From the NCBI RefSeq assembly GCF_057098645.1, contig NZ_CM169472.1: DNA of 64,000 bases, one strand, 5' to 3'. The notes below the pieces were generated by a model. That model was not told the origin of the DNA. It did not search any database and saw only the letters and a list, made by a program, of their open reading frames with translations. How positions within the stretch are numbered: the first letter of the stretch is position 1; the number at the start of each line of letters is the position of its first letter. The translations under genes and the position numbers were made by a program. Below, piece by piece: positions 36,174 to 43,845 of this stretch.

Positions 36174-39041
<2,868 letters not shown>

Positions 39042-39480
39042 TTATCGTTCATGAGAAGCATAACGTAAAGAGAAGAGCTCGATTAGACGGCAGGATTTGT
39101 CAGGGGTTATGAACGAAATTCATAAATCTGTTTGAGTGTTGAGATGAGTAGTACAAGTTCGATATCCCCGCAATTTACAGTCCGATAAAGGAAAATGAAT
39201 ATTCATAAAAAATATATCGGTTTATCCTGGCGTATATACCTACTTCGACGTATTTCCAATAGTTGTTAATTAAAGGTAGGCCATTATTATTCACTCTGAA
39301 TAATGAATTATTCACTGTCCGCAGAGTAAAAAATATAACTTAGGTATCTATTTAATGACTTGCACAAAAAGCTAAATTTTCACCCATAAATAAAAATATA
39401 ATCCCGCGCCCAACCACCTGATGAGTGGCTACAGGCACTGGATATATTAGGTGGCGGTGTACTTTCTTACATAAAGGTAT

Positions 39481-39525
39481 TTCCTTTTCTGCGGAAAAGG
39501 AAACCGGGAAATCCCCGGTTTTTCT
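39481..39525 (+). terminator. Tandem hairpins followed by a T-run in the eaeH 5' leader, terminator or attenuator-like
   Basis: ttcctttt ctgcgg aaaaggaa (8-bp stem) directly followed by aaccggg aaatc cccggtt (7-bp stem) and ttttct, ending 67 nt upstream of the eaeH ATG. Confidence 0.4.
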
Positions 39526-39591
39526 GACAAGCAGACGCCATTATTTGTGTCTGCCTATGTTCGTTAATTCGTTCATCAGGAAATTATCTCA

Positions 39592-42500
39592 ATGTCACGT
39601 TATAAAACAGGTCATAAACAACCACGATTTCGTTATTCAGTTCTGGCCCGCTGCGTGGCGTGGGCAAATATCTCTGTTCAGGTTCTTTTTCCACTCGCAG
39701 TCACTTTTACCCCAGTAATGGCGGCACGTGCGCAGCATGCGGTTCAGCCACGGTTGAGCATGGGAAATACTACGGTAACTGCTGATAATAACGTGGAGAA
39801 AAATGTCGCGTCGTTTGCCGCAAATGCCGGGACATTTTTAAGCAGTCAGCCAGATAGCGATGCGACACGTAATTTTATTACCGGAATGGCCACCGCTAAA
39901 GCTAACCAGGAAATACAGGAGTGGCTCGGGAAATATGGTACAGCGCGCGTCAAACTGAATGTCGATAAAGATTTCTCGCTGAAGGATTCTTCGCTGGAAA
40001 TGCTTTATCCGATTTATGATACGCCGACAAATATGTTATTCACTCAGGGGGCAATACATCGTACAGACGATCGTACTCAGTCAAATATTGGTTTTGGCTG
40101 GCGTCATTTTTCAGGAAATGACTGGATGGCGGGGGTGAACACCTTTATCGACCATGATTTATCCCGTAGTCATACCCGCATTGGTGTTGGTGCGGAATAC
40201 TGGCGTGATTATTTGAAACTGAGCGCCAATGGTTATATCCGGGCTTCTGGCTGGAAAAAATCGCCGGATGTTGAGGATTATCAGGAACGCCCGGCGAATG
40301 GCTGGGATATTCGTGCTGAGGGCTATTTACCCGCCTGGCCGCAGCTTGGCGCAAGCCTGATGTATGAGCAGTATTATGGCGATGAAGTCGGGCTGTTTGG
40401 CAAAGATAAACGCCAGAAAGATCCACATGCGATTACCGCTGAAGTGAATTACACGCCAGTACCTCTTCTGACCCTGAGTGCCGGGCATAAGCAGGGCAAG
40501 AGTGGTGAGAATGACACTCGCTTTGGCCTGGAAGTTAATTATCGGATTGGCGAACCTCTGCAAAAACAACTCGATACAGACAGCATTCGCGAGCGTCGGG
40601 TACTGGCAGGCAGCCGCTATGACCTGGTTGAGCGTAATAACAACATCGTTCTTGAGTACCGCAAATCTGAAGTGATCCGTATTGCTCTGCCTGAGCGTAT
40701 TGAAGGTAAGGGCGGTCAGACACTTTCCCTGGGGCTTGTGGTCAGCAAAGCAACTCACGGACTGAAAAATGTGCAGTGGGAAGCGCCGTCATTACTGGCT
40801 GAAGGTGGCAAAATTACCGGTCAGGGTAGTCAGTGGCAAGTAACGCTCCCGGCTTATCGTCCAGGCAAAGACAATTATTATGCGATTTCTGCGGTTGCCT
40901 ACGATAACAAAGGCAATACCTCAAAACGCGTGCAGACAGAGGTGGTCATTACCGGAGCTGGTATGAGCGCCGATCGCACGGCGTTAACGCTTGACGGTCA
41001 GAGCCGTATTCAAATGCTTGCTAACGGTAATGAGCAAAAACCGCTGGTGCTGTCTCTGCGCGACGCCGAGGGCCAGCCAGTCACGGGCATGAAAGATCAG
41101 ATCAAGACTGAACTAGCCTTCAAACCGGCTGGAAATATTGTGACTCGTTCCCTGAAGGCCACTAAATCACAGGCAAAGCCAACACTGGGTGAGTTCACCG
41201 AAACTGAAGCAGGGGTGTATCAGTCTGTCTTTACTACCGGAACGCAGTCAGGTGAGGCAACGATTACTGTTAGCGTTGATGGCATGAGCAAAACCGTCAC
41301 TGCAGAACTGCGGGCCACGATGATGGATGTGGCAAATTCCACCCTGAGCGCTAACGAGCCGTCAGGTGACGTGGTTGCTGATGGTCAGCAAGCCTATACG
41401 TTGACGTTGATTGCGGTGGACTCCGAGGGTAATCCGGTGACGGGAGAAGCCAGCCGCTTGCGATTTGTTCCGCAAGACACTAATGGTGTAACCGTTGGTG
41501 CCATTTCGGAAATAAAACCAGGCGTTTACAGCGCCACGGTTTCTTCAACCCGTGCCGGAAACGTTGTTGTGCGTGCTTTCAGCGAGCAGTATCAGCTGGG
41601 CACATTACAACAAACGCTGAAGTTTGTTGCCGGGCCGCTTGATGCAGCACATTCGTCCATCACCCTGAATCCTGATAAACCGGTGGTTGGGGGTACAGTT
41701 ACGGCAATCTGGACGGTAAAAGATGCCTATGACAACCCTGTGACCAGCCTCACGCCGGAAGCGCCGTCATTAGCGGGTGCCGCTGCTGAAGGTTCTACGG
41801 CATCGGGCTGGACAAATAATGGTGATGGGACGTGGACTGCGCAGATTACTCTCGGCTCTACGGCGGGTGAATTAGAAGTTATGCCGAAGCTAAATGGACA
41901 GAATGCGGCAGCAAATGCGGCAAAAGTAACCGTGGTGGCTGATGCGTTATCTTCAAACCAGTCGAAAGTCTCTGTCGCAGAAGATCACGTAAAAGCCGGC
42001 GAAAGCACAACCGTGACGCTGGTGGCGAAAGATGCGCATGGCAACGCTATCAGTGGTCTTTCGTTGTCGGCAAGTTTGACGGGGACCGCCTCTGAAGGGG
42101 CGACCGTTTCCAGTTGGACCGAAAAAGGTGACGGTTCCTATGTTGCTACGTTGACTACAGGCGGAAAGACGGGCGAGCTTCGTGTCATGCCGCTCTTCAA
42201 CGGCCAGCCAGCCGCCACCGAAGCCGCGCAGTTGACGGTCATCGCCGGAGAGATGTCATCAGCGAACTCTACGCTTGTTGCGGACAATAAGGCTCCGACC
42301 GTCAAAACGACGACGGAACTCACCTTCACCGTGAAGGATGCGTACGGGAACCCGGTCACCGGGCTGAAGCCAGATGCACCAGTGTTTAGCGGTGCCGCCA
42401 GCACGGGGAGTGAGCGTCCTTCAGCAGGAAACTGGACAGAGAAAGGTAATGGGGTCTACGTGGCGACCTTAACGCTGGGATCTGCCGCGGGTCAGTTGTC

Positions 42501-43845
42501 TGTGATGCCGCGAGTGAACGGCCAAAATGCCGTTGCTCAGCCACTGGTGCTGAATGTTGCTGGTGACGCATCTAAGGCTGAGATTCGTGATATGACAGTG
42601 AAGGTTAATAACCAACTGGCTAATGGACAGTCTGCTAACCAGATAACCCTGACCGTCGTGGACAGCTATGGTAACCCGTTGCAGGGGCAAGAAGTTACGC
42701 TGACTTTACCGCAGGGTGTGACCAGCAAGACGGGGAATACAGTAACAACCAATGCGGCAGGGAAAGTGGACATTGAGCTTATGTCAACGGTTGCGGGAGA
42801 ACACAATATTTCCGCTTCGGTGAATGGTGCTCAGAAGACGGTCACGGTGAAATTCAACGCGGATGCCAGCACCGGTCAGGCAAACCTGCAGGTAGACACC
42901 GCCGTTCAAAAAGTGGCAAACGGCAAAGATGCCTTTACGCTGACGGCGACCGTTGAGGATAAAAATGGTAACCCTGTTCCAGGGAGCCTGGTGACCTTTA
43001 ATCTGCCCCGGGGTGTCAAGCCGCTTACAGGCGATAATGTCTGGGTGAAAGCCAACGATGAGGGGAAAGCAGAGTTGCAGGTGGTTTCAGTGACTGCCGG
43101 AACGTATGAGATCACGGCATCGGCAGGGAATAGCCAGCCTTCGAATACGCAGACTATAACGTTTGTAGCCGATAAGGCTACCGCAACCGTCTCCGGTATT
43201 GAGGTGATTGGCAACTATGCGCTGGCGGACGGCAAAGCCAAACAAACGTATAAAGTTACGGTGACTGATGCCAATAACAACCTGTTGAAAGATAGCGAAG
43301 TGACGCTGACTGCCAGCCCGGCTTCGTTAAACCTGGAACCGAATGGCACTGCGACAACGAATGAGCAAGGGCAGGCTATTTTCACCGCTACCACTACTGT
43401 TGCGGCGACATACACACTCAAGGCGCAAGTGAGTCAGAACAATGGTCAGGTATCAACGAAAACTGCCGAATCTAAATTCGTTGCGGATGATAAAAACGCG
43501 GTACTCACCGCATCATCTGATATGCAATCTCTGGTGGCGGATGGGAAATCGACTGCGAAGCTGGAGGTGACACTGATGTCGGCAAACAACCCCGTTGGGG
43601 GGAATATGTGGGTCGACATTCAGACGCCGGAAGGGGTGACGGAGAAGGATTATCAGTTCCTGCCGTCGAAAAATGACCATTTCGTGAGCGGAAAAATCAC
43701 GCGTAAATTTAGTACCAGCAAGCCTGGTGTCTATACGTTCACATTTAACGCCCTGACGTATGGCGGGTACGAAATGAAGCCAGTGACGGTGACCATTACC
43801 GCGGTGGATGCCGATACGGCAACGGGCGAGGAGACGATGAAATAA
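39592..43845 (+). CDS. eaeH: Intimin/invasin-family outer membrane adhesin EaeH/FdeC (1417 aa), uninterrupted
   Basis: ORF track; N-terminal inverse-autotransporter beta-barrel region followed by many Ig-like repeats (repeated ...TVTAKDAYGNPV... modules). Confidence 0.85.
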   Translation: MSRYKTGHKQPRFRYSVLARCVAWANISVQVLFPLAVTFTPVMAARAQHAVQPRLSMGNTTVTADNNVEKNVASFAANAGTFLSSQPDSDATRNFITGMATAKANQEIQEWLGKYGTARVKLNVDKDFSLKDSSLEMLYPIYDTPTNMLFTQGAIHRTDDRTQSNIGFGWRHFSGNDWMAGVNTFIDHDLSRSHTRIGVGAEYWRDYLKLSANGYIRASGWKKSPDVEDYQERPANGWDIRAEGYLPAWPQLGASLMYEQYYGDEVGLFGKDKRQKDPHAITAEVNYTPVPLLTLSAGHKQGKSGENDTRFGLEVNYRIGEPLQKQLDTDSIRERRVLAGSRYDLVERNNNIVLEYRKSEVIRIALPERIEGKGGQTLSLGLVVSKATHGLKNVQWEAPSLLAEGGKITGQGSQWQVTLPAYRPGKDNYYAISAVAYDNKGNTSKRVQTEVVITGAGMSADRTALTLDGQSRIQMLANGNEQKPLVLSLRDAEGQPVTGMKDQIKTELAFKPAGNIVTRSLKATKSQAKPTLGEFTETEAGVYQSVFTTGTQSGEATITVSVDGMSKTVTAELRATMMDVANSTLSANEPSGDVVADGQQAYTLTLIAVDSEGNPVTGEASRLRFVPQDTNGVTVGAISEIKPGVYSATVSSTRAGNVVVRAFSEQYQLGTLQQTLKFVAGPLDAAHSSITLNPDKPVVGGTVTAIWTVKDAYDNPVTSLTPEAPSLAGAAAEGSTASGWTNNGDGTWTAQITLGSTAGELEVMPKLNGQNAAANAAKVTVVADALSSNQSKVSVAEDHVKAGESTTVTLVAKDAHGNAISGLSLSASLTGTASEGATVSSWTEKGDGSYVATLTTGGKTGELRVMPLFNGQPAATEAAQLTVIAGEMSSANSTLVADNKAPTVKTTTELTFTVKDAYGNPVTGLKPDAPVFSGAASTGSERPSAGNWTEKGNGVYVATLTLGSAAGQLSVMPRVNGQNAVAQPLVLNVAGDASKAEIRDMTVKVNNQLANGQSANQITLTVVDSYGNPLQGQEVTLTLPQGVTSKTGNTVTTNAAGKVDIELMSTVAGEHNISASVNGAQKTVTVKFNADASTGQANLQVDTAVQKVANGKDAFTLTATVEDKNGNPVPGSLVTFNLPRGVKPLTGDNVWVKANDEGKAELQVVSVTAGTYEITASAGNSQPSNTQTITFVADKATATVSGIEVIGNYALADGKAKQTYKVTVTDANNNLLKDSEVTLTASPASLNLEPNGTATTNEQGQAIFTATTTVAATYTLKAQVSQNNGQVSTKTAESKFVADDKNAVLTASSDMQSLVADGKSTAKLEVTLMSANNPVGGNMWVDIQTPEGVTEKDYQFLPSKNDHFVSGKITRKFSTSKPGVYTFTFNALTYGGYEMKPVTVTITAVDADTATGEETMK

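What the first reader, a model, noticed from the sequence alone, without database searches (positions are those of the whole stretch)
39481..39591. Structured leader upstream of the intimin-like adhesin gene eaeH
Two consecutive perfect hairpins followed by a T-run end 67 nt upstream of the eaeH start codon, inside the divergent intergenic region, where no upstream plus-strand gene needs terminating. This could be an attenuator or other RNA-level control element for the 1417-codon adhesin gene, or the 3' end of an unannotated small RNA.
Basis: seen in the sequence. Interest (0 to 1): 0.4.

Follow-up and report, generated by a model that had tools for sequence, protein, structure and literature searches.

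The report
Conserved hairpin-terminator leader before adhesin gene fdeC
Just upstream of the E. coli adhesin gene fdeC (eaeH) lies a conserved, unannotated stretch that should fold in the RNA into three hairpins, the middle one a transcription stop signal, so it probably helps keep this tightly silenced adhesin switched off.

Summary
HP1 (39480-39503, a perfect 10-bp stem) abuts HP2 (39503-39519, 6-8 bp, GC-rich), followed by TTTTTCT ending 67 nt before the fdeC ATG. The element is single-copy, present in about 93% of complete E. coli genomes, and matches no Rfam family.

The block 39359-39591 is far more conserved than fdeC four-fold sites in three other Escherichia lineages. Substitutions fall in loops rather than stems (p = 3.5e-4). 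Two stem changes give G·U only on the + strand, and HP3 carries one compensatory pair. HP2 is the second-best terminator-like site on the window's + strand.

Every credible promoter lies upstream of the hairpins. In EDL933 the only + strand start site in the intergenic region is at 39044. A published reporter starting at 39342 is enough for expression at 42 °C.

Best reading (confidence about 0.5): a structured fdeC 5' leader with an intrinsic terminator acting as an attenuator or insulator. In read-through RNA the U-tract can pair with the Shine-Dalgarno sequence, which hints at thermosensing, but that pairing is not statistically compelling. No regulated antiterminator, leader peptide or sRNA evidence was found. 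No 3' end has been mapped. This is a new member of a known kind, of moderate interest.

The parts
39044..39044 (+). Experimentally mapped + strand transcription start (EDL933 coordinate 353,384), 481 nt upstream of the T-run. Preceded by an extended -10-like TGtTATCCT (39029-39037). Absent from K-12 and E69.
   Evidence: Cappable-seq supplementary tables of PMC10469882. Coordinate transfer checked by alignment.
39359..39591 (+). Conserved fdeC control block (promoter region plus leader). Homology with the most divergent lineage (E69) begins at 39359.
   Evidence: Divergence from the window is 2.6 / 5.2 / 16.3% here against 22.7 / 24.0 / 37.6% at fdeC four-fold sites in L003 / L005 / L004. A published APEC reporter fragment starting at 39342 suffices for FdeC expression at 42 °C.
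39397..39402 (+). Perfect TATAAT followed by a GC-rich CCCGCGCC. Predicted -10 of an fdeC promoter, implying a TSS near 39408-39412. Inferred, not mapped.
   Evidence: Invariant in all lineages including E69. PWM scan. No TSS was seen here in EDL933 under the eight conditions of that study, none of them reported to induce FdeC.
39406..39460 (+). HP0, a long irregular 5' stem predicted in the leader. Less conserved: four pairs are broken in E69. Contains the ops-like GGCGGTG at 39453.
   Evidence: RNAalifold.
39480..39503 (+). HP1: perfect 10-bp hairpin with loop TGCG. Stems are invariant in 9 of 10 sequences; the loop varies (TGTG in B2 strains).
   Evidence: Pairing probability is at least 0.85 in the 9 of 12 transcript contexts tested, including all six that start at 39409 or 39360.
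39503..39519 (+). HP2: GC-rich 6-bp stem (8 bp when extended to 39501-39521) with a 5-nt loop. This is the intrinsic-terminator-type hairpin.
   Evidence: The loop shows 3 of 5 changes in strains U1 and EC31 with the stem kept. C39504T and C39516T give G·U on the + strand. Pairing probability about 1.0.
39519..39527 (+). T-run TTTTTCT (39519-39525), invariant. Positions 39520-39527 (UUUUCUGA) are complementary to the SD strand 39576-39583.
39531..39554 (+). HP3: 6-8 bp hairpin with a variable 8-12 nt loop. Carries one compensatory double change in E69 (GCAGAC/GTCTGC to GCAAAC/GTTTGC).
39556..39598 (+). 43-nt block invariant in the 8-sequence alignment A3 (one rare variant at 39597 in the 10-sequence alignment). 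Contains the SD AGGA (39578-39581) and the ATG (39592-39594). 39576-39583 pairs with the U-tract and 39585-39595 with 39469-39479 in the consensus fold.
   Evidence: The anti-SD helix has probability 0.5-0.67 and the SD is unpaired with probability 0.12 at 37 °C.
39592..43845 (+). fdeC (eaeH), the inverse autotransporter adhesin gene, 1417 codons: the gene controlled.

Best explanation
The hairpins belong to the transcribed 5' leader of fdeC.

Transcripts that start upstream must pass HP1, then HP2 with its U-tract. Candidate start points are the predicted conserved promoter with TATAAT at 39397 and, in EHEC-type genomes, the mapped TSS at 39044. HP2 plus the U-tract has the anatomy and strength of an intrinsic (Rho-independent) terminator. 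A large share of these transcripts should therefore end near 39523-39526, so the element works as a built-in attenuator or insulator that adds to H-NS silencing and keeps the adhesin off.

Transcripts that read through carry a second brake. The U-tract (UUUUCUGA) can pair with the Shine-Dalgarno strand (UCAGGAAA), and 39469-39479 can pair with the spacer and AUG. HP1 and HP3 act as structural modules of this closed leader.

Shown: the structure, its conservation, the + strand signal, and the absence of any downstream TSS or promoter-like sequence.

Inferred: that termination actually occurs there, its efficiency, and whether anything (temperature or a factor) modulates it.
For: - Anatomy: perfect hairpins plus a U-tract. 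HP2 is the second-best terminator-like site on the + strand of the 64-kb window. The fold z-score is -3.7.
- Selection: the HP1-HP2 segment (51 nt) differs at only 1, 2 and 1 positions in lineages whose fdeC four-fold sites differ by 23, 24 and 38%. Variable columns are 4/42 in stems against 11/21 in loops, Fisher p = 3.5e-4.
- Strand: two independent stem transitions are G·U on the + strand and A·C on the - strand. HP3 has a compensatory pair.
- The element is transcribed from upstream. PWM candidates with a usable -35 or -10 all lie 5' of HP1. EDL933 Cappable-seq lists a + strand TSS at 39044 and none between 39051 and the ATG on either strand.
- A fragment starting at 39342 was enough for FdeC-HA production from a plasmid.
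- No + strand gene ends upstream, either here or in E69. No small ORF is conserved.
- It fits the biology: FdeC is tightly repressed in vitro.
Against: - No mapped RNA 3' end. K-12 Term-seq tables list nothing at this site, though the locus is silent under those conditions and the K-12 gene is IS-disrupted.
- No conserved mutually exclusive antiterminator structure. The one candidate (39476-84: 39507-15) is destroyed in strains U1 and EC31. There is no leader peptide, so regulated attenuation is unsupported.
- The U-tract is short (5 U, then C, U).
- Most stem positions are simply invariant, so covariation statistics are not significant: one compensatory pair, matched by 61 of 500 shuffles.
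- SD occlusion is no stronger than in 10% of shuffled leaders.
- The experimentally mapped fdeC promoter (Easton et al. 2014) could not be read.
Confidence: 0.5

Rival explanations
1. RNA thermometer. The main job of the leader is translational. The U-rich tract pairs with the SD (fourU-like), the flank of HP1 pairs with the AUG region, and the closed structure opens only above about 38-39 °C. That would account for FdeC appearing at 39-42 °C but not 37 °C. HP2's resemblance to a terminator would be secondary.
For: - The consensus fold pairs 39520-27 with 39576-83 (8 bp, one G·U, A/U-rich, -6.2 kcal/mol) and 39469-79 with 39585-95. All these positions are invariant.
- The SD is unpaired with probability 0.07 at 30 °C, 0.12 at 37 °C and 0.16 at 42 °C. 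These are the same values the calculation gives for the agsA fourU thermometer, whose sequence was recalled from memory.
- FdeC is detected only at 39 °C or above in EHEC, and at 42 °C but not 37 °C in APEC from a fragment starting at 39342.
- No paper in the library links fdeC to an RNA thermometer.
Against: - 10% of dinucleotide shuffles of the upstream leader occlude the SD as well, and overall RBS accessibility is average.
- The outer helix is context-dependent, with probability 0.03-0.75.
- No covariation is possible because the positions are invariant.
- Published work attributes the control to H-NS and transcription (title of Easton 2014; abstract from memory). The A-tract-rich promoter region could itself be the thermosensor.
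- The anti-SD lies 50 nt from the SD across a multibranch loop, unlike known fourU elements.
Confidence: 0.17
2. A stand-alone or 5'-UTR-derived small RNA. A roughly 115-nt RNA runs from the predicted promoter (TATAAT at 39397) to the HP2 terminator (or a roughly 480-nt RNA from the 39044 TSS) and acts in trans. The invariant C/U-rich stretch 39462-39479 would be its seed.
For: - A promoter-like -10 and a terminator are both conserved.
- The single-stranded region just 5' of HP1 is invariant.
- 3' ends in 5' UTRs commonly yield sRNAs in E. coli (abstract of PMC7815308).
- A real + strand TSS exists upstream in EDL933.
Against: - No sRNA or 3' end is reported here in K-12 sRNA-seq or Term-seq.
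- No TSS is seen at the predicted promoter in EDL933.
- Rfam finds nothing.
- The U-tail of 5 U is shorter than is typical of Hfq-dependent sRNAs (established knowledge).
- Conservation continues undiminished through HP3 to the ATG, which points to a cis role.
- The element occurs only with fdeC, in Escherichia.
Confidence: 0.15
3. DNA-level operators. The inverted repeats are binding sites for dimeric regulators of a promoter that lies downstream of them (-10 TATGTT at 39556, activator-dependent), and they are never transcribed as part of the fdeC mRNA.
For: - Conserved half-sites with variable spacers also fit protein-binding palindromes.
- Loop lengths are constant for HP1 and HP2.
- The 43-nt invariant block could hold a -10, a TSS and the RBS.
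- fdeC has no mapped TSS in the data I could read.
Against: - Three unrelated palindromes would need three regulators.
- The candidate promoter has no -35 and a weak -10 (score 4.9 against 7-11 for the upstream candidates).
- The stem changes are G·U-type on one strand, and HP3 changes on both arms at once, as expected for RNA.
- The T-run immediately after a GC-rich stem would be a coincidence under this model.
Confidence: 0.1
4. A chance structure or a relic with no present function, for example the leftover terminator of a lost upstream gene.
For: - No expression evidence for the element itself.
- AT-rich intergenic DNA yields many weak hairpins (24 inverted repeats listed).
Against: - Strong purifying selection relative to synonymous sites and to the rest of the intergenic region.
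- The loop-versus-stem substitution pattern.
- The same divergent gene arrangement in E69, with a different upstream neighbour.
Confidence: 0.05

Closest known systems
Intrinsic terminators in 5' leaders (premature-termination attenuators, as catalogued by Term-seq in E. coli; Adams et al. 2021, PMC7815308)
   Same: A GC-rich hairpin plus U-tract inside an untranslated leader, on the sense strand, a few tens of nt before the start codon of the controlled gene.
   Different: No leader peptide, riboswitch aptamer or conserved antiterminator was found, so it may be constitutive. No 3' end has been mapped here. It is flanked by two further conserved hairpins.
fourU RNA thermometers (agsA, lcrF, toxT; chuA in EHEC, per the abstract of PMC9002310)
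   Same: A run of U pairs with the AGGA of the Shine-Dalgarno sequence through A-U and G·U pairs. The controlled gene is a temperature-dependent virulence or adhesion factor.
   Different: The anti-SD lies 50 nt upstream across a multibranch loop rather than in one short hairpin. The same U-run is the tail of a terminator hairpin. The reported threshold is 37 to 39 °C rather than 30 to 37 °C. The pairing is not statistically distinguishable from shuffles.
icsA leader / RnaG attenuation in Shigella (PMC2879508)
   Same: An H-NS-silenced surface adhesin or autotransporter-class gene whose leader can form a terminator-like hairpin that causes premature termination.
   Different: That system needs a cis-antisense RNA. 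Here no - strand TSS was detected between 39051 and 40802 (353,391-355,142 in EDL933), and the - strand promoter-like site is only a 9/12 match.
RfaH/ops leaders of H-NS-silenced envelope operons (PMC9765446)
   Same: A long leader in an H-NS-silenced surface-structure gene, with a GGCGGT motif 50 nt before a terminator.
   Different: The motif is GGCGGTGT/GC (GGCGATGC in E69), not GGCGGTAG. fdeC is not among the eight RfaH-bound loci in CFT073.

Membership tests
Intrinsic (Rho-independent) terminator | GC-rich stem-loop (about 5-14 bp, loop 3-8 nt) | tested here: met
   HP2 is ACCGGG-AAATC-CCCGGT, -9.8 kcal/mol, or 8 bp and -11.6 kcal/mol when extended.
Intrinsic (Rho-independent) terminator | U-rich tract immediately 3' of the stem | tested here: met
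   TTTTTCT at 39519-25, invariant in 10 sequences. Composite score d = 18-23, second best of the + strand in 64 kb (formula recalled from memory).
Intrinsic (Rho-independent) terminator | Lies on the transcribed strand downstream of a start site | tested here: inconclusive
   A + strand TSS at 39044 in EDL933 and none downstream. Predicted promoters lie upstream. A reporter from 39342 is expressed. That RNA actually reaches 39480 is inferred.
Intrinsic (Rho-independent) terminator | RNA 3' ends map to the U-tract | tested here: inconclusive
   No 3' end in K-12 Term-seq tables, but the locus is silent or IS-disrupted there. No data for inducing conditions.
Regulated transcription attenuator | Mutually exclusive antiterminator structure, leader peptide, or ligand/protein-binding domain | tested here: not met
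   The only alternative pairing (39476-84: 39507-15) is lost in U1 and EC31. The candidate leader ORFs are not conserved: a frameshift and ATG loss in E69. No Rfam riboswitch.
fourU-type RNA thermometer | SD paired to a run of U with weak or non-canonical pairs | tested here: inconclusive
   UUUUCUGA: UCAGGAAA is predicted with probability 0.5-0.67, but 10% of shuffles occlude the SD as much.
fourU-type RNA thermometer | Temperature-dependent translation independent of the promoter | not testable with these tools
   The literature shows FdeC protein only at 39-42 °C but does not separate transcription from translation. In-silico melting equals that of the agsA comparator.
ROSE-type RNA thermometer | Conserved U(U/C)GCU anti-SD motif with a bulged G opposite the SD | tested here: not met
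   No TTGCT or TCGCT in 39409-39591 (read directly).
Hfq-dependent trans-acting sRNA | Discrete short transcript with its own TSS, and a terminator with a long U-tail | tested here: inconclusive
   No transcript in K-12 sRNA-seq or Term-seq. No TSS at the predicted promoter in EDL933. The U-tail is only 5 U. All data come from non-inducing conditions.
RfaH/ops antitermination leader | 12-nt ops element (GGCGGTAG core) on the non-template strand of the leader, with RfaH occupancy | tested here: not met
   GGCGGTGT/GC here and GGCGATGC in E69. The CFT073 RfaH ChIP regulon lists 8 loci, without fdeC. The GGCGGTAG core is from established knowledge.
Dispersed intergenic repeats (REP/BIME, ERIC, MITEs) | Many copies per genome | tested here: not met
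   Median one place per genome, maximum two, in 5033 genomes.
Any Rfam family | Covariance-model match at or near the gathering score | tested here: not met
   The best hits have E = 1.3-3.3, far below gathering scores.

The most novel reading that the evidence does not exclude
The element is a dual-use riboregulator. One U-tract serves first as the tail of an intrinsic terminator and then, in read-through transcripts, as a fourU-like anti-Shine-Dalgarno strand. Transcription attenuation and a translational thermosensor are thus fused in one 110-nt module that sets the unusual 37 to 39 °C (bovine/avian body temperature) threshold for FdeC.
Probability: 0.15. Interest if true: 0.65.

Novelty: new member of a known kind. 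Interest (0 to 1): 0.4.

Why it matters
FdeC/EaeH is a broadly conserved E. coli adhesin and a vaccine candidate. Its expression is notoriously hard to obtain in vitro. It is reported only at 39 °C or above, in hns mutants, or on host contact, and the basis of the sharp temperature threshold is not settled.

A conserved terminator-containing leader gives a concrete, easily testable second layer of control beneath H-NS. It also defines which 110 nt to delete or mutate to obtain expression.

Practically, reporter or expression constructs that keep the native upstream region carry a terminator and an SD-occluding structure.

Tried and rejected
- Rfam scan at a permissive E-value: only chance hits.
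- Dispersed repeat or MITE: single copy per genome.
- Terminator of an upstream + strand gene: none here or in E69.
- Leader-peptide attenuation: the 97-codon GTG ORF and a 9-codon ATG ORF are not conserved.
- Antiterminator pairing 39476-84: 39507-15: not conserved.
- RfaH/ops: motif imperfect, not conserved, and fdeC absent from the RfaH ChIP regulon.
- Antisense (RnaG-like) control: no - strand TSS in EDL933.
- A general trait of inverse-autotransporter genes: 74 non-orthologous loci show no terminator-like site about 70 nt upstream. The six that have one carry it 150-280 nt upstream.
- Covariation test: uninformative because the stems are nearly invariant.
- Statistical test of SD occlusion: not significant, 10% of shuffles.
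- Literature search for a mapped fdeC TSS or 3' end: Easton et al. 2014 is not held. K-12 TSS, Term-seq and sRNA tables are empty at this locus. The Sakai small-gene tables are empty. The supplements of the EHEC Term-seq paper are not held. Several full-text searches returned nothing useful.

Full report
**Where this is.** The window is an E. coli O145-type chromosome (100% identical to NZ_CP028379.1). The finding lies in the 565-bp intergenic region between two aldo/keto reductase genes on the - strand (the nearer one starts at 39026) and fdeC/eaeH on the + strand (39592-43845). The same intergenic region is present in 5047 of 5426 complete E. coli genomes. That includes K-12, where the gene is IS3-disrupted.

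**Observation.** The sequence shows three hairpins:
- HP1, 39480-39503: a perfect 10-bp stem with loop TGCG.
- HP2, 39503-39519: ACCGGG/CCCGGT with loop AAATC, directly abutting HP1 and extendable to 8 bp.
- HP3, 39531-39554: 6-8 bp.

HP2 is followed by TTTTTCT, ending at 39525, which is 67 nt before the ATG. Isolated energies are -11.5, -9.8 and -11.4 kcal/mol. The stretch 39420-39600 folds 3.7 SD better than dinucleotide shuffles. With a d'Aubenton-Carafa-type score (formula from memory), HP2 plus its tail is the second-best terminator-like site among 12 on the + strand of the whole window. The tool's own scan missed it only because it extends the stem into the T-run. The element is single-copy per genome and matches no Rfam family.

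**Conservation.**
- A scan of one genome per species found fdeC orthologues, and this leader, in only three other GTDB species representatives, all Escherichia: Escherichia sp. E1V33, E. whittamii, and the divergent E. coli E69. The 74 more distant inverse-autotransporter loci have nothing comparable about 70 nt upstream.
- In E69, homology starts abruptly at 39359, and its upstream neighbour is a different gene on the - strand.
- Against the window, block 39359-39591 differs by 2.6, 5.2 and 16.3% in the three lineages. fdeC four-fold degenerate sites differ by 22.7, 24.0 and 37.6%. The 51-nt HP1-HP2 segment differs at only 1, 2 and 1 positions.
- In an eight-sequence alignment, variable columns are 4 of 42 in the stems and 11 of 21 in the hairpin loops (Fisher p = 3.5e-4).
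- The HP2 loop changes at 3 of 5 positions in strains U1 and EC31 while the stem is kept.
- Of the stem changes, C39504T (K-12, U1 and others) and C39516T (strain 4973) give G·U on the + strand RNA but A·C on the - strand.
- The E69 change in HP3 is a compensatory G-C to A-U swap.
- Only two changes break a pair: whittamii C39514A and a singleton C39484A.
- Formal covariation statistics are not significant because nearly everything in the stems is invariant.

Taken together, the hairpins are maintained by selection, most simply as + strand RNA.

**Is it transcribed, and from where?**
- A simple sigma-70 PWM (frequencies recalled from memory) puts every reasonable + strand candidate upstream of HP1. 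The most notable is a perfect TATAAT at 39397, invariant even in E69. The best candidate between the T-run and the ATG is TATGTT at 39556 with no -35.
- Published Cappable-seq tables for EDL933 (coordinates = window + 314,340) list only two start sites in this intergenic region. One is a + strand TSS at 353,384 (window 39044), found in 7 of 8 conditions. The other is a - strand TSS at 353,390, found in 1 of 8. There is nothing on either strand from there to the ATG, and no canonical TSS for fdeC.
- So + strand transcription enters the region from 481 nt upstream, and HP2 is the first terminator-like site it meets. K-12 and E69 lack that promoter, so it cannot be the reason the hairpins are conserved.
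- In an APEC study, the fragment cloned as "fdeC with promoter sequence" begins with primer P0184, which maps to 39342-39371. That construct gave FdeC-HA at 42 °C but not at 37 °C. The working promoter and the temperature determinants therefore lie between 39342 and the end of the cloned gene; within the upstream DNA that is the conserved block.
- K-12 TSS, Term-seq and sRNA-seq tables contain nothing at this locus, nor do the Sakai ribosome-profiling small-gene tables. This is expected for an H-NS-silenced gene.

**Structure of the whole leader.** RNAalifold on eight leaders gives the following:
- a 5' stem HP0 (39406-39460), partly broken in E69;
- HP1, HP2 and HP3;
- two long-range helices that close the leader. 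UUUUCUGA (39520-27) pairs with UCAGGAAA (39576-83, containing the SD AGGA). ACAU..AGGUA (39469-79) pairs with UAUCU..AAUGU (39585-95, containing the AUG).

The terminator's U-tract is therefore also an anti-SD. All these positions are invariant, and 39556-39598 is a 43-nt invariant block in the eight-sequence alignment.

In partition-function calculations the three hairpins have probability of at least 0.85 in most contexts. The anti-SD helix has 0.5-0.67 in the contexts that start at 39409 or 39360, the outer helix 0.03-0.75, and the SD is unpaired with probability 0.12 at 37 °C. But 10% of dinucleotide shuffles of the upstream leader occlude the SD as well, and overall RBS accessibility is average. 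Predicted opening with temperature is gradual. It is indistinguishable from what the same calculation gives for the agsA fourU thermometer, whose sequence was recalled from memory. The calculation therefore neither supports nor excludes a thermometer.

**Mechanism.** The best-supported reading is a structured fdeC 5' leader whose central hairpin plus U-tract acts as an intrinsic terminator. It would be an attenuator or insulator for transcripts from the conserved promoter region and from the upstream TSS, adding to H-NS silencing. SD pairing by the same U-tract would be a second, translational brake in read-through RNA. I put this at about 0.5.

I found no sign that attenuation is regulated:
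- no leader peptide;
- no conserved alternative pairing;
- no riboswitch;
- no functional ops. The motif at 39453 is GGCGGTGT, it is not conserved, and fdeC is not in the RfaH ChIP regulon of CFT073.

Rivals:
- A primarily translational RNA thermometer, 0.17. This is attractive because FdeC appears at 39 °C but not 37 °C.
- A short sRNA ending at HP2, 0.15.
- Palindromic protein-binding sites for a downstream promoter, 0.10.
- No function, 0.05.

**Comparison with known systems.** It works like the premature-termination leaders catalogued by Term-seq, and it resembles fourU thermometers and the icsA/RnaG attenuator in parts. It meets the sequence-level criteria of an intrinsic terminator, but no 3' end has been mapped there. 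It fails the criteria for a regulated attenuator, ROSE, ops or a dispersed repeat. The tests for fourU and for an sRNA were inconclusive. No paper in the searchable library describes this leader or links fdeC to an RNA thermometer. Easton et al. 2014, which may have mapped the promoter, could not be read.

**Verdict.** This is a real, conserved, unannotated cis-regulatory leader: a new member of a known kind. Interest is moderate (0.4). It offers a concrete, testable layer of control for an adhesin and vaccine antigen whose expression threshold is unexplained, but the mechanism class is familiar and the key experiment (mapping the RNA ends under inducing conditions) has not been done.

Noticed in passing
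window 39044 (+) and 39050 (-): In EDL933 a + strand TSS (7 of 8 conditions) and the aldo/keto reductase - strand TSS (1 of 8) lie 6 bp apart, facing each other, so their 5' ends overlap by 7 nt. The + strand one has an extended -10-like TGtTATCCT that overlaps the reductase start codon. The fate of this + strand RNA is unknown.
   Followed up: partly
window 39282-39314: A cluster of overlapping perfect 7-8 bp inverted repeats (CATTATT/AATAATG, ATTATTCA/TGAATAAT, TGAATAAT/ATTATTCA) in the AT-rich part of the intergenic region. It looks like a regulator binding site (Fur- or ArgR-box-like by eye). It lies outside the block shared with E69.
   Followed up: no
L083 (E. coli FDAARGOS_943), corresponding to window about 39505: An IS4-like ISEc60 is inserted inside the 5' arm of HP2, and an IS1 truncates fdeC 200 bp into the gene. 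This is a natural disruption of the leader.
   Followed up: partly
window 39041 and 39359: Two sharp homology boundaries. K-12-type genomes diverge left of 39041 (reductase genes deleted, leaving a fragment). E69 diverges left of 39359, with a different - strand neighbour and an 840-bp intergenic region.
   Followed up: partly
window 39804-39834 (+), inside fdeC: A hairpin followed by TTTTT about 215-245 nt into the coding region. It gives a weak terminator-like score (d = 2.5) and is the cause of a chance Rfam mir-4841 hit.
   Followed up: no
window 39195-39269 (+): A 24-codon ATG ORF (MNIHKKYIGLSWRIYLLRRISNSC) preceded by AAGGA, downstream of the 39044 TSS. It is not among the Sakai ribosome-profiling small genes.
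   Followed up: partly
EDL933 355,143; 357,484; 358,178; 358,200 (- strand), i.e. window about 40803, 43144, 43838, 43860: Several antisense start sites inside and just past fdeC are listed in the EDL933 Cappable-seq tables, and some of them are condition-regulated.
   Followed up: no
window 39494-39503 vs 39576-39583: The 3' arm of HP1 (GAAAAGGAAA) mimics the SD region (CAGGAAA), and its 5' arm (UUUCCU) is a second potential anti-SD. The leader therefore holds two SD-like and two anti-SD-like strands that could exchange partners. No conserved ON state could be derived from this.
   Followed up: partly
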